A stretch of DNA of 64,000 nucleotides, from positions 3,534,001 to 3,598,000 of the forward strand of contig JAYWIR010000013.1 of assembly GCA_036172245.1 (NCBI GenBank), given 5' to 3'. The stretch comes from Raillietiella orientalis. Its lineage: Eukaryota. The position numbers and the translations under genes are program-made. Of this stretch, positions 4,652-50,000 are shown in pieces (positions within the stretch are counted from its first letter, which is position 1; each line of letters opens with the position of its first letter). The notes under the pieces were generated by a model. It did not search any database, was not told the DNA's origin, and saw only the letters and a program-made list of their open reading frames with translations.

Positions 4652-7600
4652 CGGGGAGAAAGAGGGGGGGATCGAGGAACTGGATTTTGTTGCTGGGGGG
4701 GGGGGAAGAGGGAGGAGAGCAGGGTACGACAGGAACGGGCGAGTCCAACAATGGGAGAAGACGTAGAAGAAAAAAAATTTTTTTTTTCTTTTTTTGGTCA
4801 CCATGGTTGTCAGCGTGTGTTTGGTCCTTCAAGACCTCCGGAAGCAGCAGCAGAGAGCGCTGACGGGGGAGGGGGGTAAGGAAGGACGATGGCGTCTGAA
4901 CCGCTGCCTCCTCGTCTCTCTGGAAGCGTCCCTCCCTCGAGGAAAACGCGGATCACGTGACACGCACCGCTGCAACGGCGCGGCGACCCTCTCCGAGGCG
5001 CTCGCTGCGCCGACCTAGACCGGTGGGACGCGCTACCAGACCAGCTTCCCCTTAGGGGCATGTCCCTTATCCCCCACCCCCTGGAGACGAGGAGCACGAT
5101 ACCAAGGAGGGAGGGCGGCGCATCGATCGTTCCCAGAAGCACCGCCGCCGCAGTTTGCGCGCACGCGGTCGAAGAGGAGAAGGAAGGAATGACGCGGGAG
5201 TCAAGGATGGGGGCGATCTACTTGGCCATCGGCTTGGGGGCTTTAAAGTGGGGTCAGCGCCGTCACCCCCTTCGCCTTTCTTCCCGCTCCCAGGTGTCAG
5301 AAAGGAAGGGGCGATCGAAGGAAATGACCCGGAGACAGCCTCACCCTTTCCGGCTGCTGTTTTTTTTTCTTTTTTCCTTCTTTCGAGTGCCGCCCTGTAG
5401 GCGCCCTCGACCCCGCGGGCTTCCTGGTCAACGGAGGGCAGAGCGTGGTCCACACCCGCAAGAAGTCCTTCCCTCTCGGCCGCCGAGACCGTTCCTACCC
5501 ACCGCAAAGGTCAGCTCTCCCTCGTCCTCGGTCGCCTCCGTTTCGCTTACTCCTTCCCTCTCGCTGCCATAGAGGCCCGCTAGCCGTCACGCCAGACCTC
5601 TCCCGATAGGCGGAAAGGCAGGGGTCGCTCCTTGGGAACTTCCCTCATCCTCACTCCCGCCGTTCCCTCTGGAAGTACCCCCTCAGTCGCAGTTCTTCCT
5701 CGGTGGTCGCCTCCCCGGTGGAGAGAGGAGGGAGAAAAACTCTTCTTGCATCTTCCCTTTCTTCCCGGCCGGAGCCAGCCTGTCCCTCTAGAGACGAGGA
5801 GCTTCCGGGAGCGTGCGTGACCCAGAGAGTGCTCGTGGTGGCGGAGGAGTGGGCTGCTACGTCCTCCCACCCCACCCCACCCCTCTCCCCAGCCTGCGGG
5901 GAGGCCACGCAAGAGCGAGGCGACCCGCCCTGACCCTTTGGCGTTCCCAACGCCGCAAGACCCTCTCCAGACCCTCCTGAGTGCGCTTCCCGTGCCGAGC
6001 CCCGTCTCCCTCCACGAGGAGCCCTGCTCTGGAGCGGGCAAGTCCCCTCCTCCGCGTCGGAGGTCCCGAGGTTCACCTCAGGTCTTCGAGCCCCCCGGTC
6101 CTGAGGACAAGAAGACTCGCAGCTTTGGGGAACCTCCGGAGCGCCTGTTTCCGCCCGTTGACTTCGACCCCCCTATGACCAGGCTGCTCACTCTTCCTCT
6201 CCCCCCGTGGCATTTCTCATCGTCTTCCCTGACCACCCCTCGCGCGATCCGTACCGCGACCCTGCGGTGCCTATGGCACCGGTCAAGCCTCCGGGCTTCA
6301 AGGAGCGTTTCAAGACGGTTGAGCGTGGCGACAGGAACAAAAGCTGGTCCGGGAGAACGAGGATGATGATGCAAAACGTCCGGTTGTCAAGCGACCGCCT
6401 CCTTTTGTGGGGCTAGACGGGGAGGAGGCCGTCTCCTCTTTCGCTCCTTTCCCTCCCTCCAGCCCTCCCTCTCTTATCTACAACTGTGGTAGGGGATCTC
6501 GGAAGGCAAAGAAGAGACCCAAGCCCATGCCTAGGGCTCAGCACAGACCAGCAAGACGTGGCAACCCTTTAGGACCCCTCTCCCCGCCGCCGCCTTCTCT
6601 TCCTTTCTTCCTCCCATGCTCGGGCGCGGTGGCGCCATCCCTGCTGCCCGACTGTCCGGTACACCCTGGGGATCTCTCTCGGTAAGACTCGGCAGAAGCC
6701 TTCTCCCCACCCCCACCCCCAGGGTTCCAAAGCGATGCTGTCCACAGGACGGCCTCCCGTCCCCCGGTTCTCGCCGGTTCCGCTCGCACTGGGTCGTTTG
6801 GACAAGCTGAGAGCAACCTCGAGCCAGGTTCTCCCCCCGCTATGCCCTCCAAAGAGAGGGTTTGCCTTGCCTCCGCTGCCAAGGGGGTCCCTGGAACCCG
6901 GGACGGCGTGAGGCGCGTGTGTCAACCTGGAATTGGGAGAGCATCCTCCCTCGTGCCAGCGAAACCCGTTCCGGTTTGCTCCAGGAGACTCCTCCTCCTC
7001 CATCTGAATCCCCCCCCCTGAAGAGGGCGCGCACGGCGCTGCCGCCTCCGCATTCTTGGGGTGGATGCACCATTAGATAGTCCTTATGGCTACCAGAAGG
7101 CGGCGGCAGCGGTGTCTCCCAGCGGAGAGGACGCTGTGGCGACGGTGCACACGATGACCACCTGACGGTCGTCTCCACTGCCGCAGTGTGCTCCTTCGTT
7201 CCCCTCCCCACGGGCCGGCTGTTCCCCGGGACCACACGGACCTCGGAAAGGGGATATTCATCCCTCCCTCCGCTGATACCCCCGGGCAGTCGAGGTGGAC
7301 CCCTCCGTGCTGCCGCTGAGTGTCTTCCTCACGTGAGCGAGCAGTCCCCGGAGGCTTCGGCAAACGCTGATGCTGGGAGTCCCACTGTGAGTGGTGGAGC
7401 TGGCGGCGGCTTCGAAGCGGAGCCGATGGAAGTCCACACAGGGCCACACCTTCCCCTGGCCTCCGAAGGGGAGACTGAGAGACGGTAGCAGTATCAGGAG
7501 ACGTCCGCCTTCCGTGCGCTCTTCGAGACTCCCGGGGAGCGTCCGAGGGTGAGATCCAGGAGAGGCCCAGGGAGGTGGACCGCATACTGCCGGAGGAGCC

Positions 7601-33125: not shown

Positions 33126-36100
33126 TCAGGCAGCCGCTCAGTGACGGTCACCGGTCCCCCGCCGATCCAGGAGGAATCTGCCCGAGTGGCACGCACCATG
33201 CGTTGCCACTGCTTCCGCCTGCGGTTTCCCCGCGGGATCCTACAGCTTGCCGCATAGATCCGAAAGGTGATGCGAAGAGGGGCTTGTCCCACAGGTTCCC
33301 GTAGCCTCTCTCCGGCCAGGTCAGGGCCATCTCCTTTCCTTCGGACCTGCGGCAGCTCCAGCTGCCGCAACTTCCCCTTGCGGTGACGCCGAAGAAGAGT
33401 GCTCGAGGAGGCACGAGAAGAGCCTACGGGGAACAGGGAGGGTGGGGAAACCCAAGTGATAGAATCGAAGATGCCGAAAAAGCCCTAGGAGACAGGAACT
33501 TCTGGGGAACCGCACCTTCAGGAGACGAGACAGGGCGGCGGAGTTCTGCTACCGGAGTCTGGAGACACTCTCGTGCCCTGAAGGCAGCCACCGCCACCTC
33601 CCTTCCTTCGAACCTCCCCGCGAGTCTTCTTTCCGGTCCCGACGACGCCGAACGGGAGCAACGAGCGCAGTGAGATCCGAAGCGGATGCTGCTGCCTCAC
33701 AGGACCGCTTGCTCGAGACGAGATGAAGTCGACGACGAATCGCCTTCCCCCTCCTCCTAATCAATGCAAGCCATTTACGAGGTGCCCCCCTCCTCTCCCC
33801 AATAAAGGACGTTCTGAGCGATCCGTGGCGGTTGCGTAAGGTCCAGTAGATTTACGTTTCTCCGGTCTCGCGACCGTGAGCCGCTTCGGCCTTTCTCCAA
33901 GAACTGCGTTCAGATCTCTAGTTCCCCTCCCCCTCTATCATCAATGGAGTCGTCTCGGTGCAAGTTCCTGTTTTTTCTCTCCCTTCCTCTGAAACGCGCA
34001 CCAAGAAAAAAAAAAAAAAAAGGATCGGAATGAGAGCACCGCTTCGCCATCTAGCGACACTTCCGGAAACCCCAGGAGCATGGGATTACAACGCGTTCCT
34101 GACCGTCCTTAGAAGCGCCAGGAAGCAGTGCCGGCCTCTGCAGAAGGGGCACCTCGTCATGCACACCCGACGCTCACCCGCGTGAAGAGGGAGGAAGAAG
34201 AAAAAAAAACTGCTTTTTTTGATGCCGAAATCTGTACGCCTTCCACAGCCGCGTGCCACTCATGCCGCACCGTCAACGATGATTTATCGGAAAACGGAAG
34301 CAGACCTCATATCTCCTCCTTTCAGAACAAAAGTGCCAAATAATAAAGACCGATTACCGAAGAGGGTTCCTATGGGCACGGCGTCACGGAACGGAGCAAA
34401 TGAGTCGTTAAGCCTTCGCCCGGAATCCTTCGTGCGGAATTTTCCCCCAAAGACCGGTTTCCCGAAGTCCGCGTTCCACTTGCTCGTGTCTTTATCACTC
34501 CGGGAGCGGCTACGCGGACATCAGTCGGGAGCAGTTCGCAAGTGTGCGGTTGCTTTGGGGAACACCTTGGCAGATGCATCTTCCACTGTCAGCGGATTTT
34601 GGCACCTTCCCGACTCGCGGAATTCACGGAGAAATTTCGTGCGCTGCTAGAGATGTCAGAGGCTGATGCTAGGTGCAAGAACCGCGATAGGCAGCCGTGC
34701 GTGCCGGCGAATCGACACCTTCTGTGCGTGCCGCAGAGGAATGCCTGCTCCGTTCCGTCAATAGATGGCAATGGCTCAGCAAGGAAACGACCAGGGGCCT
34801 CGGAGCGAAGAAGGGCAGCGTTCCAGACGGGATCACTCGAGAGAAGCAGGCAGCGGCGAAGGGGACGAGCGGTTTCTGAAACTCCTGGGAAACCTGTCCC
34901 GACCTCCCCTGGGCATCGCAGAGAGGACACTGCGTGCCATGGAGAGAGAAGAGTTTCCGCATCCTTCCTTGGCGCGGGGGCTTTGCGGTCTCGCAGCCGC
35001 GCGGAGTCAGCTCTGACCTCCTGCCGTGCAGCAGGTCAGACATAGGTCGCACCTATCTTCCTCTAGGCCCTTCCATACAGCGGTGTCGTCTTCCGACTTT
35101 TCTCCCCGATCGATTCGCTCCCGAATTCACTCTCCGAGCGCTGCAGCAGAAGGGAGCAAAATGGACGACCACGCCGCTAGCGCTCCTAGCGAGCGTCCCT
35201 AAGCCGGGACGCCGGAGTCCGCAGGGAGAGCGGGCAGTAGCCGACGACGCCACTGGAGAGTGGGGCTGTTGCGCGCCTACGATACCGCATTGCTGTGGTG
35301 AGTAACACCCCTCCTTCTTCCTTGAGAAGAGAGAGAGAAAGAGACGTTCTCGCCTCTCCATTCCTGGAGAGTCCTGCAGACAACCTTGGAGAAGATCTGT
35401 GCCTCGCTGCGCCATCGCACTACACTGAAGTCCATGTTTCTACCACGTAGACGATGCTCTGCGCCAGCGCATCCTGTCAAGAGGGTGGATGAGGGGGCGT
35501 AGGAGCGTGCGCGCGTAGGAGGTGCGCCAGCCCACCTGCCTGCCACCTGCCGGCGAGCGACGTAGGCGGCGCTTGGGGCGGCCTCCTCGGCCGCCCGCGC
35601 GCGGGAGAAGGCTGTCCTCTTCGGAGCGGAACCGCAAAGGCTCCAGGAAAATCGCTCCCCGCCCCTCCGGTCCCAAAGGGGCCGAGTTTGCGTTACTGAG
35701 AGGCGTCGTAGCGTGGACATTTGGAAGAGGCCCCACGCGCGCACATTCTTACCCCCGTAGCCCTCCTCCTGCTGTCCAGGAGGCCCCCTACCAGCCCCGT
35801 CTGCCCGTTCTACGCACCACCATTTTATCCCGCCGCTCACCGCCCTGCGTATGTGTGAGGACGGATGGTTGGCCTGCCATGGGGCTGTGCTGCTTCCTGC
35901 CCGCCTGCGACGGCGCCCGGGAGCGACCGTTCGAGGTGCTGCTCCCAGGAGTACGCGAGCGACACCCGCAGGATGACCTTGGGCGGCAAGGGCGAGGACT
36001 CGCCCGCTGGGGCCGCGCGCCTGTCGCGGCACAGCGCCTTCGCCCGACTCCTCCCCCGGGTAGGTGGCTCCACGGCTCCCTCGTGCGCGCCACCGTGTCC

Positions 36101-38699
36101 GCGGACCCACGCCGCGAGTTTCCCAACCGCCCACCGGCCTCCTCAAGTGGCGCGGCAGCGCCAGGTTCCCCCTCCTGAAAGGTCATCATCGACCCCCCCA
36201 TATCCGGAACGCCTCTCTTGCGCGGAGCGCCCGACCGTGGTCCTCAACCGCAGTTGACTGACGAGGACGCATCCGACGGATGGCAGGTCATCGACTGCTG
36301 CGGAAAACCAGGAGCCGCGGGAAGGCGCACTGGCCGGCGATGACGGAGATCACCCATGCTCCTTCCCCCCTTTCCCCGTCCTCCCATCCGACATCCGGAT
36401 CCCGGTTGGCACCCTCCTCAAGGACGTTTCACGGCTCCTCTTCGTGCGGGACGCCCTGCATCCGGCCGCGGCCCGCCCTGGAAGCAGCCCTTCGCTGTTT
36501 CCGCGGAGTCGAGGCCGTCGGAGGGATGGAGAAGAAAAGCGAAACCGACGGAGGAAGAAGCGGACGGGACGCCGTCCAGCTCGCAGTTCGCCTTCCGCGG
36601 ATACCGACCGGACGGCCCCACCCGGCACCTATTCGGACGGACCTAGGACCTAGGACGTTCCAGGATGCCGGAACGAAATCCTAGAGGACTTTCTCCAGCG
36701 GCCGGTGGTCTCCTCCCCTTCCCTCCCGAAAAGGTTTTTATTTATTTTTATTTACTCTTCCTTTTTCCTTTGTGTTTTTCTCCCGTTCCCGCACCGCTGC
36801 CGAGGTGACCTTCGCCGGTCTCGCACCGGCGATCTGGAAGGTCCGTGGACAAGCGGAGTGTGGTAGGGCCGACACGCACGTCCTACGAGCTTCTTCTTGA
36901 AATTCTGAGCAACGCCCTGGCGTGTCCGGGTGGAAATCGAACTTCCGGGAAGGAACTCTCTAGAAACGGGGGGACACCAGCGCTTCTCAGGCGCTCCGGA
37001 GGATGATGCGAGGCCCACCCAGGAGGTCAAGCGGATCGCCCTCTCCTCCCAAAAAAGCGACTGATTCGAGCTAGAAGAAGGGTACGAACTCGATCCAGGA
37101 AGAGCAGAGACTCCCTTCTCCCTTTTCTTATGCAGCCTCTCGGTCGGTAGATCTTAGCCAGAGATCGACGAGGAGGAAAACTCCAGTGATTGGCGTGGGA
37201 ATCGTCCCGTGGGGTGAGAGGGTGTGCCCCGGCCTTTCCGTCGTCCGACGGTGCTACCCGACGATCGACCGGCAGTGTGTCGACGACTTCGATGAAGGGA
37301 TGAAGGGCAAAGTATCGCTGGCTCTCCGCGAAGCTGAAGAGCGCTGCTGTCGCCCTCATTTTTCCTCCTTGCTCCAGGTGGTCTCATTAACCACGACTGC
37401 CTCTTCCCCCGACCATGAGAAACAAAAGGAAGAGGAAGAAAAAGAAAATCAGTTTGCCTCAGCATTTCTGAATCTCTCCGAATAACGGAGGCGGCTTCCA
37501 GGAGGCGGGATCCTTCTCGATGAGACACGAACTCGCTCGCTTGGTCCTGGAGAACAGTCAGAGAAACCGAGGAGGCCAGCGACCACAACATCGCGCGGCT
37601 TTCCCAGCAAGTCCGCCATTGCGGATCTTCTGACCATCCTTGAGATCTTCTGATCCATGAAAACCCGGAATGTGGTCCTCGAGAGGTGAAGAAAGGGATT
37701 CCCACCCTTCCTCCTCGCAGTGGGGTTCCTCCAATGAGCTTCCTCGTAGCTTCAGCATCTCTTCGCAGCATCACATTCGCGGCAGCTTGATGCCGTGGAT
37801 GAAGAAAAGAAAGGAGCGGGAGAAGACATGCACGCTGGAGCCTCACAGATCATGGCTTACGCTACTGCTGCGACAAGGAAGTCAGCGCGCTGGGACCCTT
37901 TCAGGGTCCTTCATCATTTTAGAAATCTCACGAAGACCGTCAATGCAGCGCTCCTCCTTCCGAGGAGCAGAGCCACGAAGCGGCCGTTCGCAGCTGCTGT
38001 TTGGTTCGTCAGTGGAAAATGCGCACACGCACACTCCCCTGCGACCTGTAAAGAGAATTTGCAAAGAGCGCACAATGGCGATTAATAATCGATCCCTTGC
38101 TTGCAAATTGATGGGGCCGGCGCCTCCAGCCCCATCGGTTTAAAGCAACAGGTGGAACGTCCAATTCCCACGACTTCGGACGTGTGCCTCTTGCTGGCGG
38201 GTGGAAAGCGAGTCCGATCCGTCCTGAGCGTTGCCCCCGAGCTGCTCGGAAGCTGATGACTTTCAGCCGCGAAGGCGAGCTTACAAACTTGAGCCAAGGG
38301 AGGGAAAGAGACAGGGAAAGGGTGTGAGGGCGGCGAGGTCACTTCGAAACTTTCAAGGTTCACCCATGTTCTCTTACTTCTGAAAAGGTCGTTCCAAAAC
38401 GTGTTTGTCCAATTAGCTACAAGCGTTTCTCTGCTGCCCATCCACTCAGTGACAATTTTAAACAGAATAAAGATCTCTTCAGCTTGAAATACCTAACTGC
38501 AATCTCCTGGACCGTCGCCAATGGCTTGACGAATCCCCAATCTTTCCCAAGTGACAGAACAAGGATTCTCTACTTCATCCCTACGAAATCAAGCTGAAGT
38601 TGGTACTCTCTTCCATCCAGTTGAATTGATTGGTTCTGTTACTTTCAAGAGGTATAGTAACAACATAAATGGTTGTCGTCAAAGACTGGATGAAGGAAC

Positions 38700-41370
38700 A
38701 GGATTTTGTTTCAAACAACAGGCCATGAAGAAAGCAACTTTATTATGAGAATCGAGAAAGTGTCTTTGTCCTATGAGATGGTCTTCGACTTCCTGGAACC
38801 CTGCGCCAATGAGAATGGCACTTGATCGACAACCTGGTAGAAGGAAACGGGGAAAAGGAAATGCTTTTCTTCGTCCAATTTCTCATTCACAGAACCCAAG
38901 AGGATTCAGTTGACAAAACTTATGCAGGCATGGAAAACAAAGCAGGTCTGTGTCTCAAGCTCCGTGAAAAGAATCTCTGACGATGGCCCTCTTCAGGAGT
39001 GGATCGAGAGTGGACCACGGAAGCGATCGGTGTGTTTACGACTCCTGACCAACGAGCCATGGTCCCAGCAGCCACTTCGTGATTGTGAAACAGCATTTCG
39101 ATGTGGCATTTCAAAGTTTCGAATGGTGAATTCAACCCCAGAAGGCTTACGAAGAATCCTCCCCCCTCCCCCTCCCTTGAAAAAAAAAAATGAAAAATGA
39201 AAATCAGAAACGTAATGTGGAGATTTGGAGTTCGTTCTGCCACAAGTGCACGTGCACACGCAAACAGCGACTTGAAATCCTCAATGCGTGAAGATCTTAC
39301 TAGGAAAAAAAAAAAAAACCCGATTTTTATTGCGACATTTATACCAATTTACTTGAATATTTATTCCGGATAATTTTACCTTGCTACTCATTTTAATGCT
39401 TATCTCGATAATGTATTCCTCTATGATATCGGAGGCTTCTTTCCCTCCGAAAGCTGCAGTTACCTTGCAGAATGTTCGTTCTTGGTATAGGCGCCATTAG
39501 AAGATAATGATGGTATGCTGGTTTTCGGGAAGCAATGATCACCTTTTTTTTTCTTTTTTTTTTTTTAGGAGGATGAATGATCTGTTGTTCCTTTTCGACA
39601 AGTGCCCGGATTCATTTGAGAACTCGTATGAAAAAACAGCAAAAGGTTAAAAAATTAGGTCAGAGCAATCAATCGTATGCGCCCCCTATTCCCTAACATA
39701 AACTCTTAGCATAAACTTTTTACTTTAAACTTCATTGACTTCGAAAAAAATCGATCCTGTCTCTCCGGGACTATGAAAACAATCAAAAAGGAAAGAAAGA
39801 AGATTATACAATAACAGGAACAAGATCGATTTCGTCCAATTCCATTTTCGTTTTCAGCTTCCGCTTCCGATTCTATCCGACCTATGATTTTCGTAACAAA
39901 TTATTGCCTATTTCAGCATGGACGCGAGGAAGGTTCGTTTGTGAATTGCGCCAGCGCGATTCTGCTGCTTCCGGGGTCCTCGGCCACACCCTGGCAACCA
40001 AGCTCTCTCTCCCCCCTTGCCTCCACCTGAGGAGCCGCCCGTCCAGCAACGGCGGGGAAGATTCGGACAACCGAAAATACGGTAGGAGATGTCCATTCCA
40101 TGGAACGACGGTTCTTGTGATTCCCCAAAAGAGTCCAGCAGCTTGAGAAAAATGCCAAATTAGAAGGGAAGAAATAAGCATGTTAAGAGGAAGGCAGAAA
40201 ACTTTCGCTCATGGCATCAGTCGATGATTCTGATGACACTTTCCCATCTCATTTTTCCTAGTCGTAATATTATAGGACTTTTCTTTTTTCTTCTTATTTG
40301 TTTATTTATTTTTTTGAAACGAGAAAACGAATTGCATTTCGTTAAGGCTGTTGTTTAGAGTATAGTCCTGGGCTTTCTCATGAATCTTTATTTCATTTAT
40401 TTATTTATTTTTCTTAGTAATTATCCTTCAGGTTTCTTATGGACCTCATGGACAAGTAATGAGCACTTCTTTCTTCTCCGTTTAACATTGGATTATTTCC
40501 CAGCATGCCGCCGACCTTCGCAGCTAGGAAAAACCGTAAAAGGAAAATGAACAGTATCAAAAAAGAAGGAATTGAAAGAATTTCAGGATTCATCACGGTG
40601 CTGCTTCATCAGGCACAGGATGGAGATCCCCGAGGCAGTCTGCCACACGAGCGGAAAAGGGGCAGCTTCCTTCGGATCCCGTTTTCGGGACAAGCAGCTT
40701 GGGAGAGGTGCTGCTTGCTCTTTTGCAACCAAAACAAAGAGGAAGCAAAGAGGAAACTCTCCCTTGTATGGGACCGCTTCAGGCTGCTTGGCACGACCCG
40801 ATGTTCTTCATCCATTCGAAGTTCACGAATCGTAAAGGACAGCACTCAAGACCGGAGGAAGAGCAGCAAGGTAGAAAAGGTCACGATGTGTGCCAGAGGT
40901 GCCAGACGCTTCGAAAATCCAAATTTCGAAGTTTATGTTTCAGATGCATCCTAAAAATTACTCTGCGTACTGCGCGGTTGGTATACTGCAGTTTTAAGTG
41001 CGTGGAGGAATTTGGTTTCTGAATCGCATTCAAAACTCAACGACAGGCTCTATGAATCATCCACTCGAAGTGGAACCTCCCATCGCTTCTCGTCAAATTT
41101 TTTGGCTAACATCAATGTGTTGGGAATACAAAACAAACTCGGCAAAGTGTTCTTTCAAAGATTATGCGAGGTTCCAGGTTTGGTCCAGAGGCCGAAGAAT
41201 ACGTCATCGCAGGGATTCCTCTTTCCAACTTCCTGGGTCCAGAATTCCGGTCCAGCAAGGAAATCGCGTTACCTTATTTTCGTTTCCTTCGCTTCAAGAG
41301 TTTCCTAAGAGTACCGTGGAGGAAAAGTGAGTATTGGAAAATTACCAAAAGAAACCCAACTTGTGTGTAA
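38700..41370 (+). CDS. Candidate micro-intron-rich gene or pseudogene, unknown product
   Basis: A series of GT..AG segments of 42-51 nt (38946-38996, 39030-39071, 40082-40131, 40456-40503) separates short open exons, e.g. PKRIQLTKLMQAWKTKQ / EWIESGPRKRS / PLRDCETAFRCGISKFRM and FLMDLMD / NMPPTFAARKNRKRK. No complete model and no family recognised. Confidence 0.3.
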
Positions 41371-41964
41371 TTCGAGATCGAATCTTTTGATCGTATTTGG
41401 AAGATCAGCTCAGCAGCTGTCCAAAAAAAAAAAAAGAAAAGAAAGGAGGAAAATCCCGTTTGCAGCCTTGGGGGTGTCACGGATGCATCAATTAAAGGAG
41501 TCGCCCATTCCTTACGTTTCTCGGGAGTGATGCAAGGGAATAATTCCCTTCAGCCACCTGCCTTAATTTTCAACATCCTCCTCACGTTTCAGTCCTTCGG
41601 CCCCATCGCTCGTGTTTCGTAGTGAAGTGTTTACTGTTTACAAATTGGAATCGGTGTACGGCATATTTTTTTTTGCCCCCATTTATCAGGTTGAACCTTC
41701 AGTTAGGCACACCGTGGACGTGGTGTTCTTTGCAAACAACATGTACACCAACGTGCATACGTGTGAAATCATAATAACGTGTGTTGTTGGAATTTTCATC
41801 CATGGAAAATTATTTGAGTACAGGAGGAATGCCTTTGCCACAAAGGAAATGCTGCAAAGTTGTTAACTTGAATTAATAACCGAATAAGAGGCATGCATTT
41901 CCTAATGCGTGTTGTACATATATGCACATGTGCGTTTGTGTATACATCTGTGTGTATGTGTATG

Positions 41965-42033
41965 CAACTGGGAAAATTGCATACCAAGTTAGATGGGAGT
42001 CCAGCTCCTCTGTTTGTAGTTCTCCTGCGGTGC
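41965..42033 (-). repeat. Inverted copy of 42653-42720 (CCDC9 exon 2 / intron 2 junction)
   Basis: caactgggaaaattgcataccaagttagatgggagtccagctcctctgtttgtagttctcctgcggtgc is the reverse complement of 42653-42720, with 2 substitutions and 1 extra G. Confidence 0.95.
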
Positions 42034-42362
42034 CTATACCTAGCAGTTACACGTTGTGTGTAACCCCTAAGTATAAGTTGAACATTATACGTACACATAC
42101 ATACACATGACTCCATTTGTTGTTTACTTAAATACACATGCCCATGCATTCCAGTGTGTGTGCATAGTTCTGCCCATGTTAATATTCTAAAAATTTGTTG
42201 AAATTTCGACGATTGCATGCAGTGCATCTTCACCTTCGAAGCATGAAAAAGTGTAGGGCTGTGTGTGTGAAAGAGTGGATGAAGTGTTGATATTTTTGCA
42301 AAAGATGTTATTTTAGCTGCTGTACCAAGTCCCAGAAGAAAATAAACAACCTTTCCTTTCAG

Positions 42363-44033
42363 ATGGATTCAAAAGAAAAAGAAGCATTTCTGAGTGCAAA
42401 GATAGAAAAAATTCAATTACAAAACAAAAGAATCGAAGAAAGACGCAAAGTGAGATATATATAAAAAGAAAAATAATAACAAAGAAATTTCAATTTATTA
42501 TTCATTCTATTTCTTTTTTTTTTCTCTGGAAGGAAGTGTTGGATGATATTAAAAATGCAGAGTCCATTAAACCTATGAGTCAGAGTCCCTGCAAATTTAG
42601 AACTGAATTCAATGTAAGAACACCACATGCTAATAAAGCAGCATCTAGGCATGCACCACAGGAGAACTACAAACAGAGGAGCTGGACTCCATCTAACTTG
42701 GTATGCAATTTTCCGAGTTGAAATGAATGTATCATGATTTTCAGAGTGATATGCCTCCTCCAGATCCAGGATACAATTTTTTGTATGATCCATCAAGAGT
42801 GAATAGTACTCTTAATGCAGAAGATAGAAGAAAAAATAGGAAGCATCAAGAATTGTCAGTAAGATACAATGAGAGAGGAAGATATCAAGCAGTAAATAAG
42901 AGGTAAAGCTGTTACTTACATAGGTCAAAAAAAACTATCACAAAGGAAGGAGCACTCGCAAGGACATGGAAAAGGAAAAGCAGTGGAGGGAAGAAAGAGA
43001 ACAGTATGATAGTGAGCGTCTGCGGAGAAGTAGAACCCAGGATGGCCAGTGGAAGAGAGAGTGGGATGCAAATAAAGAGTTGCCCTTCTCTGATGAAGGA
43101 TGCCCTTCTGAATTCAATAGACCCTTAAGAACATCAGGTATTGTTGGAGACAATGTGTAATTTTGAGGTGCAGAATGCTCAATTTTTAGTGATACCACCT
43201 GAAGTGAAAAACCCAGAATATCTTACAGTGCAAGAGGATCAAGAAGAAAGCAAATTTGCATCTCATGTGATAGGAAAGCAAGTAAGGATGTGTCCTTGGA
43301 TGTGATCATGTCCCTGTGGGATTTCAGGCAACAACATTTAAGTTCCAAAAGAGCAAACTAAAAAATATTAAGAAACCACCAAGTAATGAATCCTCCTTAA
43401 AATCCAGAGAATTTTACAGGCCAAGTCCACATCAGCAAACCACTTATCAGCATAAGGGAGAGAGATGTGAGATGCAGAAGGAAAGAGAAACTCAGAAGTC
43501 TTTATGGAATGCATCAGAGGAAGAGAGTACAGGAACACAAAAGGATAAAGGTGTAAGCAGGAAGAACACTTCCATCACAGTACTGATGAGCTACAGGAGA
43601 AAGGAACCACATGACTGAACAGCCTTCAGTGATCAAAGCTGAGATTATAGAAGCAAAAAGTGGTGACGAGTCAGAGAGAGAAAGTATGGATGGAGATGGA
43701 GAGAAGCAGAACCAAGAGTGTGCAGGAGACAGGCTAGAAACCCAAGATGCTGTAGCAAACTGTGCATTTTTGGAATACTGTGCTTCACTTCAAGACATGT
43801 CTGCATCTTTGGTATGACAGCATTTTTCCTGATGGTTGAACTAAAATGTTCAGGAGTTGCAGCATGGATTGTCCCCGAGTGCAATAGAATTGGGAGAAGA
43901 CGAAAAGATTATGAAAACTGATGTAAGGGAAGTGATTCTGTCAGAAGCAACTGATATGCAGCAAAGTGAACAGCTTGCTGTAATGGCTGAAGAGAAGCAG
44001 GTTTGGGAAACAGAAGATAAGAAGGACATTTGA
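42363..44033 (+). CDS. CCDC9: CCDC9-like coiled-coil protein (DUF4594 family), 8 coding exons, 430 aa
   Basis: Exons 42363-42449, 42533-42700, 42745-42858, 42924-43137, 43190-43281, 43328-43550, 43597-43811 and 43854-44033. All introns are GT..AG and all phases match (1293 nt, no internal stop). Motifs match CCDC9 as I recall it: N-terminal MDSKEKEAFLSAKIEKIQLQNKRIEERRKEVLDDIKNAE (cf. SKEEKDAELDKRIEALRRKNEALIRRYQEIEEDRKKAE), PPPDPGYNFLYDPSR (cf. NFLDDPRR) and WREEREQYDSERLRRSRTQDGQWKREWDANK (cf. WKQEREKIDQERLQRHRKPTGQWRREWDAEK). The 3' exons are acidic and low-complexity, and are supported by splice phase only. Confidence 0.85.
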
Positions 44034-47000
44034 ATACATGGTATGTTCTCAATAGATTTCAATGAATTGTTAGTAATAATGTGTAAGCAAAAATCAGAAA
44101 TGGATTTATAACCTCTGAAGAAGGCAATTTTTCGTTGGTAGCCATACTCACATCATACAAGTGATTGGAGTTATGCTCCCCAAGTTGTGGAAATCAGTTC
44201 ATGTGACTGAAGATATGCACTACATACACAGAGGTGCTTAATACACAGAATGGAACTGAGGTGTACAGCTAATCCCCTGATATGTTCTTGAACTGCTGAA
44301 TTGTACAACTATTGCTTTGTGTAATGAGAAACCACAATAATGTGCAACCACAGTCATAGCTGCCTTTTGTATCAGAGATTGGAATTGGATTTTATAATTT
44401 TGCAGGATGGCATGACATGCGTGCCCCTTTCATCCACAGTCGCGGTTTTACCGCGTTTCCATACCGAATTCGGCGTGAGGCTTTGAGGAAGCGGTCATTC
44501 CAAAGAACTCGGTTCAACTTCACAACGGGCTCTCATTGTGCTGCCCATGATGTACGAATGCTGTTGAAAATTGCATTCCTTAGGTTAGAAATAACCGGAA
44601 TTTGGGTCCTGTCATTGGCTCGATGCCCACAATTTCGGCGGATGCTCAGCTTCAGGATGGCCTTCGGTAAACATCTTCGGCTCGGTATCCGAGCGGTTCG
44701 ATTTGTTTCCTCGAGGAAAGCACGCCGAGCACTCGGACGCGTGTCCACGGTCGCTTGCGCCGCGCAGGGTTCTCAGATCAGGGGAAGGGCTTTTAATGGG
44801 TCCCGGAGAGGTGAGGAAGGCTCCAAGTATGTATATATAATACTCAATTAGCGTGGAAGGTAAACGAATCTATCGGGCGAAATAACCAGGTGTTGGCCGT
44901 TGAGATCCGTTCGAGATTGCAAACGGGGAAAATCATTACGAAAGCAGCAACACCCAAGCAAACGGCAGAAATAGTGCGTGAGCTGTCACGCTCTCTCTGT
45001 GACGTTTTCATCCGGAGCACTCGATACACTTTTGTTATTCTTTGCCTCCACAGTTTCTATTTTGACACAGCGCATCTGTCGGCATCAGAATAAAAACTCT
45101 TACGTGTGGGATTGGTAATTCCCCTCGGCAGACAGTTCTATAGAATAAAACACGCAGGTTCTTGGCAGGTTTCTTGGGATGAAGACAGGAAACAACGAGG
45201 CCACGATGAGTGCAGAATTCATGCTGCACCAAACTCAATCTGAAGCAATTGAGCATCTCAAACATGACTGCCGCACTTCAGTGAGTAACCGTTGAAGCAA
45301 AAGTCTTATCTGCCATGTAACGAATCGGCTACAATTAATCAGAAAGACTGTTTATTGAACAGTGATTGCGAGCCTATTTGTAACTCTCGGCAAACACACA
45401 CACACAAACATACAAAAAAGACGCAAACGGCTGCCTTATTATCTGTGGAAATCCCACGTTGCCTGGACATTTACAAGGCGCACATAAGTGATGTCTGACC
45501 GTATACGGTAGACATCACTTGGCATTTCCGGTTTTTTTTTCCCTTCCCTTCCAACCAGGGGAGGGCTAGTATCTTGAACCCTTTTATCGGGTGCTCTCTG
45601 GACCACATTATCCATCAAAGGAGCGATTTCAGCACCGGGAGGGGAAGATTTCCGCACGACACGCGTTTCCATCTCGAAGACTTGCTGGCGTGATTGATGT
45701 TGAGCGGTTCCATCAAGGAGTTGTTTGCTCGTTCGGTATTTTGAGGGAACTGATGCTTCCGAAAATTTCTGAAGCATCTAAAGAGTTTCTTTTTTTTTTG
45801 ATTCCACCCCCTCCCCCTCCAAGTCGTATGCCACGTGACGCCGCGGCATGCGAAAATACGCTGACTTTGTTGCGCTGATGCTGCGGAGGAGGGAGGATGC
45901 AGTGCCCGTGCGCTGCTCTGCTCTTGTCGCGAAATCTTAATTCAACCGCACCATTTTTTGTTTTTTGTTTTGCAGTGGAAAAAACAGCAGCAGCCACGAG
46001 TCCACGTGCGCCAGTGAGTTCCTCACATCTCTGGTTACCCATTCTCGAGATGCACAGCTCTTGTCACTGACAAGGGTAGGGTTGACAATAGCCACAAAAT
46101 GCCCACTGGGGGACCGCGGGAAGACCAGAGGCGCGCGCGACTCTGCCTTTACCTTGTGGCTTCCCATCTCATCGCGTGCTGAAAATAATGGGGATGGAGC
46201 AGTCCCCGGCTGGAAGCTGCTCGCTCCTTGTCCTCCTCCCAGTTTGAGCGCCGCCGCCGCCACGTGGGTGTGCTCTGCCGCCTCTCGACCGCGCGGAGGT
46301 GGGGCATCAAAACAAAACACACACACAAAAAAGGACAGCACCTCCGCCAGCGGCTAGAAGGCCGCGCAGGTTTACCAGTCGCGGGTGGGGGTGCGCCACT
46401 GGTGATGAACGCTTTGCTCCGAAGTGTAGGAACAGCAATGGGTCGACGGACCCATTGCTGTTAGGGATCAGCAGGGCCGCAAGCGATTCAGAACGGAAAC
46501 TGAATGGACTCGCAGGTGGAGGACTCCACGCCACTGCACGTGGGAATAGGAATGCCGGAGGCGAAGGGACCACGGGGGCATCTCGCAGAGGTGGGACGGG
46601 GAATCCGCGGTAGCCGGCTACGCCATGAACCCGCCCTCAGAGACCGAAGGAGGAGTGCGACATCCGGTCGGCAAGGAGAGAGGGAAATCAATGACCAGCA
46701 TCCGTGAAGGAGCGGCAGCCGGGAAGGCGCGACCTCCCCCTCTCCCCCCTCCCGACGGGGAAGGGGGCAGCCGACCGCGGCATCTGGCGGCGGCAGTTTA
46801 TCTAGCGACGCGCGAACGAGGAAAGCGGACGGGAGGGTGCGAGAGAGAGGGGAGGGGAGATAAATCGGAGGAGGAGGAGAGCGTTGTGTGTGCTTGCGAG
46901 GTAGGAATCGCGCGCGCGAAGGCATCCGAAACGGAGGGCGGCCAGGCATTCGCGTTCGACGGAGCTCCTCGGTCGACCTCAGGTCGCACGGCGACGGGTG

Positions 47001-50000
47001 CGCCGGTGGGTGTTGGGCGGGCACCGCCGCGGATCGAGCCTTCCACCTCCAGAGGTGGCGCGCATCGCATCGTCCGTCGTCGTCGTCACAGCAACATCTC
47101 CTCCCTCCGTCCATTCTTCTTCCTCTCCTCCTCCTCCTCCCTCCCTGTCTCCCGATCAGGATGTGCTGCGTCTGGAGGTGCGCCGCGACGCACATCTCCG
47201 GGAGATTTGTCGATTCCGTCCGCTGCAGGGCTCGCCCTTCCGCTCGTCCGCGTGGCCGTGGCAACAAGACAAGGAATATGCCTGAAAACAAAAAAAAAGA
47301 AAAAAACAATCCAAACGGAGAGGGAGAGAAGTGAGGAAGACGAGGGGGAGAGAGTGCACGCCATTCCCCATCGCTCGAAGGGCTGCCCGTCGCGGGTCCG
47401 CGTCGCCTGCAACGCTCCCGCGCGCCTCGGCGGAGCAGCCCGGCAACGGAAAGTCAACACGAGGGGGAGACGGAGGAAGGGTCATCACATCCGGGAGCAG
47501 GGGATCCCGGGGTCTTCCGCGAGCCAAGAGCGTGCGGAAGACCCTATCCCTATCCGCCTCTGCGCGGATGTCGCAGCGGATTGTCGGCAGGGCAAGAGGG
47601 GTGCCCTGTGGCGATTGCGCGGCCGTGGTCCTCTTCGCGTCCCTCTTCTCCTTCCCCTCCCCTTCGTCCCGGAGACCAAAGAAGAGGGTCCTCGGCCGGA
47701 TCTTCTGAAAGGAACGAAGGGGAAGGGCTGGAGGAACGAAAGAGGCAATCCGTTCGGGAGAAGGAGGGGAGGAGGCGCAGCATCGAGGCCGTTGCGGGTC
47801 GCTCGGAAGGCCTTCCCTCGGGCAGGCGACCAGGACAAGTACCGTGGGAAGGACCAGAGGCCGGCAAACTACGTCGCCAGGTGACAATCGATGAGAGCTT
47901 GCCCGTAGCCAATCCCCCTTGCCCGTGAGAGGAGGCACGGCGACCGCAAGCCAAGGAGGCGATCCGCCACGAAGATGTGGCCTTCTTGGGGCAGATGATG
48001 ATGCTGAGGATGTGACTTGCATCTCAACGGTAGGTCAGCATTGAAAAACGATAAAAAAGATGAGGGTGAATGCATAGCAGCAGCAATCGCATCTCACTCC
48101 GCGATCTTCAACATCAGACAACATTTTTGCAATTTCTTTTAAGGCTTTTTTTTTTGCCTCCTTGTGGATCCTTAGCAATGCGGAGCACGGGTGTGCATCT
48201 CCGCACAGTGTGCTGATACTGTGACAAGCAGCAAAAATAACGACTCTGACCCAAACATCTCGGTGACCTGGGCGATGGTTCGCGCGATGCTGACTCAGTC
48301 TTTTGGAGTTTCGAATGATCTCTTCGCTGCAGGAGGCGAGAAGCTCGCCGAGGAAGGTCTCTTGGCAACGGCCCCGTGCTGCTGCTGGGTGTCTGCTGGC
48401 ATCACTTTTAAGGAAGGGAAAGAGGAGGAAGGGCGCAAGGGAGGAGGAGGAGGGATAAACATTTGGAGGAAGTTCGCCAAGATGGGCAGCCACTTCGCCG
48501 CAAGATCCACCTTGGGTGCGCCCGACACGGCGAGATCGATTTGCTCGAGGGGGCCCCAATGACCACCCGAACAAGCGGGAGGATTCCGCTTCTTGCAAGC
48601 TGCTAGACTTTCACCCCCCTTCCCGCAACGATCTTCTGCCCGTACCTCGACTCGTATGCTCAGAAGGGTTTGACCAGGGCGCCGAGGAGGGGCAGATGAT
48701 TTCTTCCTCTCTTCCGAATTTTCATCTGACGGCGGATGCGGCGGGGATGAAGCAGCAGCAGGAGGATTCGAAGGTACCCGGCAATCTTCTTGACGTAACG
48801 TTAGCGGCTTAAGAGGAGAGTGCTGACATCGGAGGGAAGCGGAGGGAATTTTTAATCCCCCCCCCCCTCTTCTCTCCACGATGAGTAACCACAGTCCTCG
48901 GAGTTTTCGTCGAGGGCTACTGACGCTCTTCTCACAGTCGAGGACCTCGTACTTGCTGTTGCTCCCTACAGAACACCGAAGGTCTTGGCTGAATGCCCTC
49001 CCGTTCGATCCGAACGTTCTCGCGCCGCTTTGAATGGCGCCGCAGCTCAGTCTCGCTCTAGAGGAACTGCACAGGCGCGCCAGAAACGCGGAAGTGAATC
49101 CCTGTGGGTGAGGCGCCGGACGGGCGGTGGTGGGCGGGCGCGGAGTGGCCGGACCCACTGCTGCCCTGAGCCGTGCGCGACGGAGCCCGTCGGGCCGAAG
49201 AGAAACGGGAGGCAGCCGGAGAAGAAGCGACGAGGAAAAGCGGAAGGCAAAGAGTCACCGGAAGCAGCGGGGCTGCGAGGAACACGGCGGAGCCTGCAAA
49301 GAACGAGCGGCCTTGCTGGGCGGCAACCGTGCACTCCAGACACATGGGTTGACACGGAGACTGCCTGGAAGAGGGAATGGAACTAGCGAAGGACTTCCAT
49401 GACCACCACCTCGCGCCGACGAGCTCAACGCGCTGGACCTGTTCGAAGGGGCAGCTCACCGCCTCCTCCCAAACACTCCCTCCCTCCTCGTCGGGTGGAG
49501 GTCGCTCGCCCCTCCCTGCGTGCCTTTAGCCAGCCACGGATGCCTCCGGGCGCTCCTCGCGGCTCCGATCCTTCGTGGCAACCGGATACTGCGGAATAGA
49601 AGGGGGGGGGGGGTCGGCGGGGCACCAGAGAAAGCAAAAATGCAGCCCTGGGCTGCAGAGACTGCGTCAGGGTGACCGAAAACGCTACCCCCTCCTGATC
49701 TGTCCGCAACGCTGGACTTGCGCGGGTTTTCGCACGAGGGCAGCATCAGCGCCTGGAAGGGTGCAGTCGCCTTCTCGCTAGCCCGGAGCACTAGTCCGGA
49801 GGAACGGCCCGCGAGCTTTCGGGGACTCGCAAAAGATAGGAAGCTGGAAGAGGAAAAGGAAGGACAGCAGAGGTCAGGTCACAGAGACATCTGCAGCAGC
49901 GGAGGGTCACCTCAGAAGCAGAGGAAGTTGGAAAGGCGCCCGCCGCCTCTCCAGAAGATCGCGGTGACCTGTGACGATCGGGTCCGCGGGGAAGCGGCTG

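What the first reader, a model, noticed from the sequence alone, without database searches (positions are those of the whole stretch)
41965..42720. CCDC9 carries an upstream antisense copy of its own splice donor: possible built-in splicing or dsRNA switch
Seen: a 69-nt inverted copy (41965-42033, 3 differences) of 42653-42720. The copied segment is the last 48 nt of exon 2, the GTATGC donor at 42701 and 20 nt of the 44-nt intron 2. Because it includes intron sequence it is not derived from spliced mRNA. The ATG is directly preceded by an acceptor (TTTCAG|ATG), so the upstream DNA is probably transcribed as an intron or outron. Inference: the pre-mRNA could fold into a ~68-bp duplex that masks this donor. 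Retaining intron 2 gives an in-frame TGA at 42719-42721, before the DUF4594 motifs, i.e. a truncation or NMD switch. The duplex could also be an ADAR or Dicer substrate. A neutral local inversion-duplication is equally possible.
Basis: partly seen in the sequence, partly recalled or inferred. Interest (0 to 1): 0.7.

Follow-up and report, generated by a model that had tools for sequence, protein, structure and literature searches.

The report
Backwards exon-end copy upstream of CCDC9
A 69-base backwards copy of an exon end and its splice site lies 330 bases before the start of an animal CCDC9 gene; it could fold onto the original in the RNA, but it looks like a young DNA-copying scar of a kind that is common in this genome, and nothing shows that it is used.

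Summary
Observation confirmed. 41965-42033 is an inverted copy (2 substitutions, 1 extra base) of 42653-42720, the end of exon 2 plus the intron-2 donor of an intact, single-copy CCDC9 orthologue. Predicted duplex: 66 pairs, -124 kcal/mol; in equilibrium folding it buries the donor.

Best reading (0.68): a young templated inverted insertion, tolerated but not selected. Five other local inverted duplications lie in 1.04 Mb sampled from this genome. A random 69-nt piece of this gene covers a donor 27% of the time. All three differences break pairing. One junction looks like snap-back synthesis.

Whether the copy is transcribed is unshown. Modal introns here are 42-50 nt, so the acceptor before the ATG implies little; an early CpG decline and nine upstream ATGs weakly favour transcription.

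No RNA run, no reads over the arms and no close relative were available. The scan already noted six similar intragenic inverted exon copies elsewhere in this genome (unchecked AI notes).

The parts
41965..42033 (-). Inverted copy (upstream arm) of the last 48 nt of exon 2 and first 20 nt of intron 2
   Evidence: unique in G000
42034..42043 (-). Ragged extension of the copy (5-nt match after a slipped spacer); possible re-priming scar or chance
   Evidence: blastn extends the match to 42043/42645; mechanism is inference
41960..41984 (.). 8-bp perfect hairpin (9-nt loop) spanning the left junction, with 5 of its 8 stem bases outside the copy; snap-back-like
   Evidence: the 5-mer occurs twice in the 35 nt before the copy, so chance is not excluded
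42046..42064 (.). 7-bp hairpin just right of the copy
42653..42720 (+). Source arm: end of exon 2, donor at 42701, start of intron 2
42345..42362 (+). Acceptor-like site directly before the ATG (score 7.0; median of 129 heuristic introns 6.4)
42363..42449 (+). CCDC9 first coding exon (29 codons)
   Evidence: likeness to the N-terminus of vertebrate CCDC9 seen by eye, no significant tblastn hit
42533..42700 (+). Exon 2 (168 nt, phase 0/0); no match to vertebrate CCDC9
42614..42619 (+). Candidate alternative in-frame donor (GTAAGA, score 5.4) outside the duplex; use would delete 29 codons
   Evidence: use is inferred
42701..42744 (+). Intron 2 (44 nt; donor score 6.1, near the median 5.9); in-frame TGA at 42719-42721
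42745..42902 (+). Exon 3, carrying the motif that aligns with vertebrate CCDC9 (42763-42846); 3' end uncertain (42858 or 42902)
42950..43137 (+). Exon 4 with the DUF4594 (PF15266) match at 42978-43097; 5' end uncertain (42924 or 42950)
   Evidence: (43.3 bits, cut-off 27)
43190..44033 (+). Predicted exons 5-8 to the stop at 44031-44033; the whole model is open for 430-441 codons
   Evidence: boundaries predicted by hand, no RNA

Best explanation
A young, local templated insertion. During break repair or a replication template switch, a DNA end about 620-690 nt upstream copied 68 nt of the CCDC9 gene body and inserted it backwards, probably through a snap-back step at the left junction. The copy has since drifted by three changes. 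It probably lies in the 5' intron or outron of CCDC9 (about 60%, inferred). If so, it can pair with exon 2 and its donor in the pre-mRNA and may perturb splicing as a side effect, most cheaply through the in-frame donor at 42614 or a small retained, decayed fraction. It is tolerated, not a selected switch. Shown: the copy, its uniqueness, an intact host gene, the background rate, the predicted duplex. Inferred: repair mechanism, transcription of the arm, any effect on splicing, neutrality.
For: Background: 5 other local inverted duplications (40 nt or more, 80% or more identity, 100-5000 nt apart) in 1,039,266 bases of G000, at 86.5-100% identity, i.e. of various ages. Of the 5, I searched 4 against the genome: 3 are two-copy only, 1 is a near-identical local pair inside a diverged family. 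That is about 5 per Mb, roughly 1000 per genome (Poisson range about 330-2400). 427 of 1602 69-nt windows of the CCDC9 body (27%) cover a whole donor, 45% a donor or acceptor. Short near-perfect palindromes are in excess: 9 observed vs 0 in one local shuffle of 200 kb, consistent with fold-back activity. None of the 3 differences keeps a pair in the + strand RNA. The exonic one fits ordinary methyl-CpG decay at a synonymous Pro third position in a gene body with CpG o/e about 0.1. The junction hairpin fits the snap-back model (PMC5728401 passages); templated insertions occur in natural isolates (PMC4032859 passages).
Against: The duplex is far more stable than chance and buries the donor in the model. 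Human inverted exon duplications do cause exon skipping (PMC8756506, PMC6549551 passages), so survival beside an intact single-copy gene may mean the copy is untranscribed or that its effect is accepted or used. CCDC9 co-purifies with the exon junction complex (PMC8111494 passages), and splicing-related genes often self-regulate through unproductive splicing (recalled). Three differences are too few to test selection. The background sample is not random (contigs and gene neighbourhoods were chosen by me), and none of the 5 background events was shown to involve an exon. The junction hairpin could be chance in a TG-rich flank.
Confidence: 0.68

Rival explanations
1. Functional RNA switch. The arm is transcribed in the 5' intron or outron, pairs with exon 2 and the donor, and sets CCDC9 output by shifting splicing to retention with decay (stop at codon 92), to the in-frame donor at 42614 (29 residues shorter) or to exon-2 skipping; selection keeps it.
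For: Duplex -124.3 kcal/mol; donor unpaired probability falls to 0.001 while the 42614 donor stays at 0.52. CpG o/e falls 500-750 nt earlier relative to the ATG than in 9 pooled housekeeping genes (0.82, 0.61, 0.34 in the last three 250-nt bins vs 0.84, 0.93, 0.90), and 9 ATGs lie in 41965-42362; both fit a long 5' intron or outron. Long-range stems that mask splice sites are known (PMC2724269 passages). CCDC9 is linked to the exon junction complex.
Against: Such copies are common here. No compensatory or G-U-keeping change among 3. The Drosophila precedents are marked by near-complete conservation over 40 million years, which could not be tested here. No RNA evidence was available.
Confidence: 0.12
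2. The copy lies upstream of the transcription start (the acceptor before the ATG belongs to a short 5' intron or short outron), so no intramolecular RNA duplex forms. It is a DNA-level relic; at most a divergent promoter transcript carries it. This is the no-effect extreme of the neutral reading.
For: Introns here peak at 42-50 nt. Donor-like sites lie 102-110 nt upstream of the acceptor. The host gene is intact although the predicted duplex would block a constitutive donor. The copy keeps a CpG that the gene lacks, which fits a less methylated position.
Against: Early CpG decline and 9 upstream ATGs. The nearby donor-like sites score below the median, and similar scores are frequent by chance: 22 donor-like sites scoring 5 or more in 40300-42362.
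Confidence: 0.13
3. Assembly or amplification artefact (a fold-back chimera written into the contig).
For: No raw read spans either arm. One difference is a one-base homopolymer change. One background event is 100% identical over 433 nt.
Against: Two substitutions separate the arms, one being a CpG-type transition at a synonymous site. The sequence returns to the forward strand after 69 nt, which needs two switches. The background events span 86.5-100% identity. The gene model has no frameshift.
Confidence: 0.07

Closest known systems
Templated insertions from polymerase theta-mediated end joining / synthesis-dependent MMEJ, and fold-back inverted insertions at breaks (PMC5728401, PMC4032859, PMC11724301)
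   Same: Short insert copied from nearby DNA; inverted orientation; includes intron, so DNA-templated; an inverted repeat spans one junction as in the snap-back model.
   Different: The template lies about 620-690 nt away and the insert is 69 nt, whereas the yeast fold-back duplications are mostly 5-34 bp and adjacent to the break (abstract). The pre-insertion allele is unknown, so deletion and microhomology cannot be read.
Intragenic inverted exon duplications that cause skipping in human CHM (PMC8756506) and MANBA (PMC6549551)
   Same: A backwards copy of exon and flanking intron in the same gene, predicted to hairpin with the original; origin ascribed to template switching.
   Different: Those are much longer (13.1 kb in MANBA), whole-exon, disease alleles with exon skipping seen in RNA. 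This is 69 nt, covers only an exon end and donor, lies before the start codon, and has no RNA evidence.
Long-range intronic stems that mask splice sites in Drosophila (Atrophin, CG33298; PMC2724269)
   Same: A distant complementary element covers a splice site and could shift choice to an alternative site.
   Different: Those were found by near-complete conservation across species and tested with minigenes. This duplex is a long near-perfect recent duplication with no conservation or functional evidence.
Intronic editing-complementary sequences of ADAR substrates (recalled; no call)
   Same: Uninterrupted helices of 24 and 32 pairs, and an A-C mismatch at 42658, a context recalled as favoured by ADAR.
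   Different: Editing that A would be synonymous (Pro). No editing data exist here.

Membership tests
CCDC9 (host gene) | DUF4594 (PF15266) domain over the curated cut-off | tested here: met
   43.3 bits vs cut-off 27; the only match in G000
CCDC9 (host gene) | Collinear similarity to named CCDC9 proteins outside the DUF4594 core | tested here: met
   The exon-3 motif and exon 4 align in order with vertebrate proteins; 5 of the 8 looked-up clusters are named CCDC9 or CCDC9-like, 2 are hypothetical, 1 unnamed
CCDC9 (host gene) | Intact reading frame | tested here: met
   3 of 6 tested intron combinations give one open frame of 430-441 codons; the other 3 use an out-of-phase donor. Predicted, not confirmed by RNA.
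Templated insertion / local inverted duplication | Insert copies nearby unique genomic DNA, including intron | tested here: met
Templated insertion / local inverted duplication | Junction microhomology or snap-back repeat | tested here: inconclusive
   8-bp hairpin across the left junction, but the flank holds the needed 5-mer twice in 35 nt
Templated insertion / local inverted duplication | Comparison with the pre-insertion allele (deletion size, breakpoints) | not testable with these tools
   No relative of G000 is held; run X1 does not cover the site
Functional long-range splice-masking stem | Stable pairing that covers a splice site | tested here: met
   In silico only
Functional long-range splice-masking stem | Both arms in one transcript | tested here: inconclusive
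   Indirect CpG and upstream-ATG signs for; short introns and nearby donor-like sites against; no RNA run listed
Functional long-range splice-masking stem | Conservation or compensatory change across species | tested here: inconclusive
   Only distant loci were available; 2 of 23 reach the N-terminal exon and neither has an inverted copy there. 0 of 3 arm differences keep pairing.
Functional long-range splice-masking stem | Measured change in splicing when the stem is broken | not testable with these tools
   Needs a minigene or deletion
ADAR editing-complementary sequence | A-to-G edits in RNA over the duplex | not testable with these tools
   No RNA holder listed
Transposon with terminal inverted repeats (MITE or similar) | Multiple copies in the genome, with arms as element termini | tested here: not met
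   Arms and flanks are single-locus; one arm is coding sequence of a conserved gene
Known Rfam RNA family (miRNA precursor or other) | Match at gathering score | tested here: not met
   5 matches at E up to 1 in 38000-48000, all below gathering; 2 are on the TG-rich flank 41912-41966

The most novel reading that the evidence does not exclude
A recent DNA-repair accident has given an exon-junction-complex-associated gene its own cis-antisense splice switch: an arm in the 5' intron or outron hides the intron-2 donor and shifts CCDC9 between full length, a 29-residue-shorter form (donor 42614) and a decayed form. Together with the similar inverted exon copies noted elsewhere in this genome, this would be a lineage in which template-switch duplications repeatedly create new RNA-structure splicing control.
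Probability: 0.12. Interest if true: 0.62.

Novelty: new member of a known kind. Interest (0 to 1): 0.2.

Why it matters
As a neutral scar it is minor: one of perhaps a thousand local inverted duplications in this genome, useful only as a sample of its mutational process. If the arm is transcribed and shifts splicing, it would be a compact natural test of how splice-masking RNA stems first arise: a 69-nt element, one 44-nt intron, three distinguishable outcomes, all within an 800-nt minigene.

Tried and rejected
RNA evidence: no RNA holder listed; this is no evidence either way. The one DNA run (X1, share 0.13) gave 8 listed pieces of 11 laid: four exact pieces elsewhere in the locus and four short mismatched matches to the TG-rich flank; none spans an arm.

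Homolog searches: the word-indexed protein search found none among 16 candidates; the Atlas gave no usable hit; the profile search gave 21 hits, some spurious.

Conservation: 23 metagenome loci with DUF4594 relatives are too distant (38-61% identity) and mostly lack the 5' end. Inverted repeats occur in 6 of 23, none overlapping the matched coding segments.

Transposon termini: rejected, single-locus. Rfam family: none at gathering score. Neighbouring upstream gene: 37 frames (35 from 37030-41367, the minus-strand frame over the copy, and one frame downstream of the gene) gave no Pfam hit over cut-off, so an operon or head-to-head layout is neither shown nor excluded. Core promoter motifs (recalled Drosophila consensus): none of DRE, Ohler 1/6/7 or TATA in 39500-42400, three Inr-like words; not informative.

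Genome-wide acceptor-before-ATG test: 3 of 9 housekeeping genes have an acceptor scoring 7 or more within 60 nt of the ATG, vs 10% of 252 control windows; suggestive of frequent 5' introns or leader splicing, too small to decide. The 9 were those of 23 LSM/proteasome loci where I could place the ATG by eye. The splice-site matrix comes from 129 heuristically picked introns (of 166 clusters) and scores two accepted CCDC9 acceptors near -1, so it is a rough tool.

Literature: searches for CCDC9 with 'exon junction complex' and with 'intron retention' listed no title on CCDC9 autoregulation or an antisense self-copy; I saw listings only, 15 of 19 and 10 of 25 papers, and some hits are other CCDC9x genes. 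No supplements were read.

Full report
OBSERVATION. The repeat is real at the stated coordinates. 41965-42033 is the reverse complement of 42653-42720 with a G-G mismatch (41970/42715), one extra G (41995-41997) and a C-A mismatch (42028/42658). blastn extends it raggedly to 79 columns at 92%. It is the only inverted hit in a self-comparison of the 64-kb window, and a search of G000 (210 Mb, 491 contigs) finds it only here; the upstream 1.66 kb is also single-copy. Folding of 41940-42760 gives z = -9.25 against 20 shuffles.

HOST GENE. The frame at 42924-43157 matches DUF4594 above cut-off, the only such match in the genome. Homologs from a profile search include vertebrate proteins named CCDC9, and both the exon-3 motif and exon 4 align with them in order. 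Exon 2, the copied exon, has no match to them. A hand-built model with seven GT-AG introns is open for 430-441 codons, depending on intron 3. A 44-nt intron is normal here: a vasa-like gene has 45- and 48-nt introns by eye, and 129 heuristically picked introns from 30 DEAD-box loci peak at 42-50 nt. The gene body is CpG-depleted (o/e about 0.1), which I read as gene-body methylation in an invertebrate animal (inference). Human CCDC9 co-purifies and co-elutes with the exon junction complex (PMC8111494, passages seen).

WHAT THE DUPLEX COULD DO. The two arms form 66 pairs in helices of 5, 24, 32 and 5, at -124.3 kcal/mol. In equilibrium folding the donor's mean unpaired probability is 0.001 with the arm and 0.30-0.47 without. 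This ignores co-transcriptional splicing and proteins. Two other outcomes keep the frame: a donor at 42614 (GTAAGA, the commonest hexamer in my intron set, 7 of 129; score 5.4 vs 6.1 for 42701) lies outside the duplex, stays accessible (0.52) and would delete 29 codons; and exon 2 is 168 nt, phase 0/0. So masking does not imply decay. Editing of the mismatched A at 42658 would be synonymous.

IS THE ARM TRANSCRIBED? Not shown. No RNA run is listed. The acceptor before the ATG is good (7.0) but needs only a short intron; donor-like sites lie 102-110 nt upstream. In favour: CpG o/e declines from 750 nt before the ATG (0.82, 0.61, 0.34) whereas nine pooled housekeeping genes stay near 0.9 up to the ATG, and nine ATGs lie between the arm and the start codon. 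Counts per bin are small and the flank is TG-rich, so this is weak; I put transcription of the arm at about 60%. Three of nine housekeeping genes have a strong acceptor within 60 nt of the ATG against 10% of control windows, and an unchecked note from this scan reports leader splicing in this genome, so an outron is as plausible as a cis intron.

HOW UNUSUAL IS IT? In 1,039,266 bases of G000 (window and neighbours, four 100-kb blocks, twenty 10-kb stretches near DEAD-box genes, 53 short gene loci; chosen by me, slightly overlapping) a self-comparison gave 14 rows. Besides this case they reduce to 5 inverted events (89-1373 nt, 86.5-100% identity), 4 dispersed direct events and 2 tandem arrays. 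Four of the five inverted events were searched genome-wide: three are two-copy, one is a near-identical pair within a diverged family. That is about 5 per Mb, on the order of 1000 per genome. I did not show that any of the five involves an exon. Because introns are dense, 27% of 69-nt windows in this gene cover a donor, so hitting a donor needs no special explanation. Short near-perfect palindromes are also in excess (9 vs 0 in 200 kb, one shuffle). The scan's own notes list six further intragenic inverted exon-fragment copies in this genome, each read by its agent as unproven or neutral (AI notes, not checked by me).

ORIGIN. The copy includes intron, so it was templated on DNA or on unspliced RNA; DNA is simpler. 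An 8-bp hairpin spans the left junction: read on the minus strand, the copy's end can fold back on itself and extend by five bases that match the flank. That is the pattern of snap-back synthesis-dependent end joining (PMC5728401, passages seen). Templated insertions are found in natural nematode isolates (PMC4032859, passages seen), and fold-back inverted insertions at breaks in yeast (PMC11724301, abstract and outline seen). The flank contains the five-base word twice in 35 nt, so chance remains possible, and without the empty allele the mechanism is inference. Three differences in 69 columns point to a young event. None keeps a pair in the sense RNA; the exonic one is CpG in the copy and CpA in the gene at a synonymous Pro position, as expected from methyl-CpG decay in the gene.

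COMPARISON. It works like the inverted exon duplications that cause skipping in human CHM and MANBA (PMC8756506 and PMC6549551, passages seen) and like Drosophila long-range stems that mask splice sites (PMC2724269, passages seen). Membership of the functional class needs co-transcription, conservation and a measured effect; the first two are inconclusive here and the third untestable. Of 23 distant DUF4594 loci only 2 reach the N-terminal exon, and neither has such a copy; this says little about close relatives, of which none is held. Other papers were seen as listings only.

VERDICT. A real, young inverted self-copy beside an intact CCDC9 gene. Tolerated templated insertion with at most a side effect on splicing 0.68; untranscribed relic 0.13; selected RNA switch 0.12; artefact 0.07. 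New member of a known kind; interest 0.2. The switch reading is cheap to test and would deserve about 0.6 if true.

Noticed in passing
L085:728-1160 and 2157-2589 (G000:C19:1655728-1657589): 433-nt inverted duplication, 100% identical, 997 nt apart, two copies in the genome; very recent event or assembly artefact.
   Followed up: partly
G000:C1:2049917-2053790; C2:3067012-3070548; C9:1508407-1511536; C9:1567438-1568375: Four more local inverted duplications (1373 nt 99.8%, 224 nt 94%, 467+88 nt 95%, 89 nt 86.5%); the first lies in a diverged multi-copy family. Coding status not determined.
   Followed up: partly
L012:5209-5309 and 6087-6245: Split direct duplication (49+49 nt, 88-92%) in AT-rich DNA between exons of a minus-strand gene that looks neurexin-like (name recalled, not tested).
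   Followed up: no
window 35906-37428 and G000:C13:3663279-3664798: 1.5-kb sequence repeated in inverted orientation 92 kb away at 98.9% identity; possibly a mobile element or segmental duplication.
   Followed up: no
whole window and sampled loci: Two-compartment genome: GC-rich (60-70%), CpG-rich DNA interrupted by AT-rich islands (30-40%) holding compact, CpG-depleted housekeeping genes with 42-50-nt introns.
   Followed up: partly
L101, L108, L116 (LSM and proteasome genes): Strong acceptor-like sites within 60 nt before the start codon in 3 of 9 genes checked; fits frequent 5' introns or leader trans-splicing.
   Followed up: partly
window 42859-42949: Intron 3 of CCDC9 has three frame-compatible readings (32, 47 or 65 nt); possible alternative splicing just before the DUF4594 core.
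   Followed up: partly
window 38000-41500: AT-rich stretch upstream of CCDC9 without a Pfam match over cut-off in 35 frames from 37030-41367; a minus-strand frame at 38085-38492 looks protein-like by eye, and 38501-39000 has lower CpG (o/e 0.55).
   Followed up: partly
L005-L024, L078-L097: Many short near-perfect palindromes (30-84 nt) in unique DNA, above a shuffled control.
   Followed up: partly
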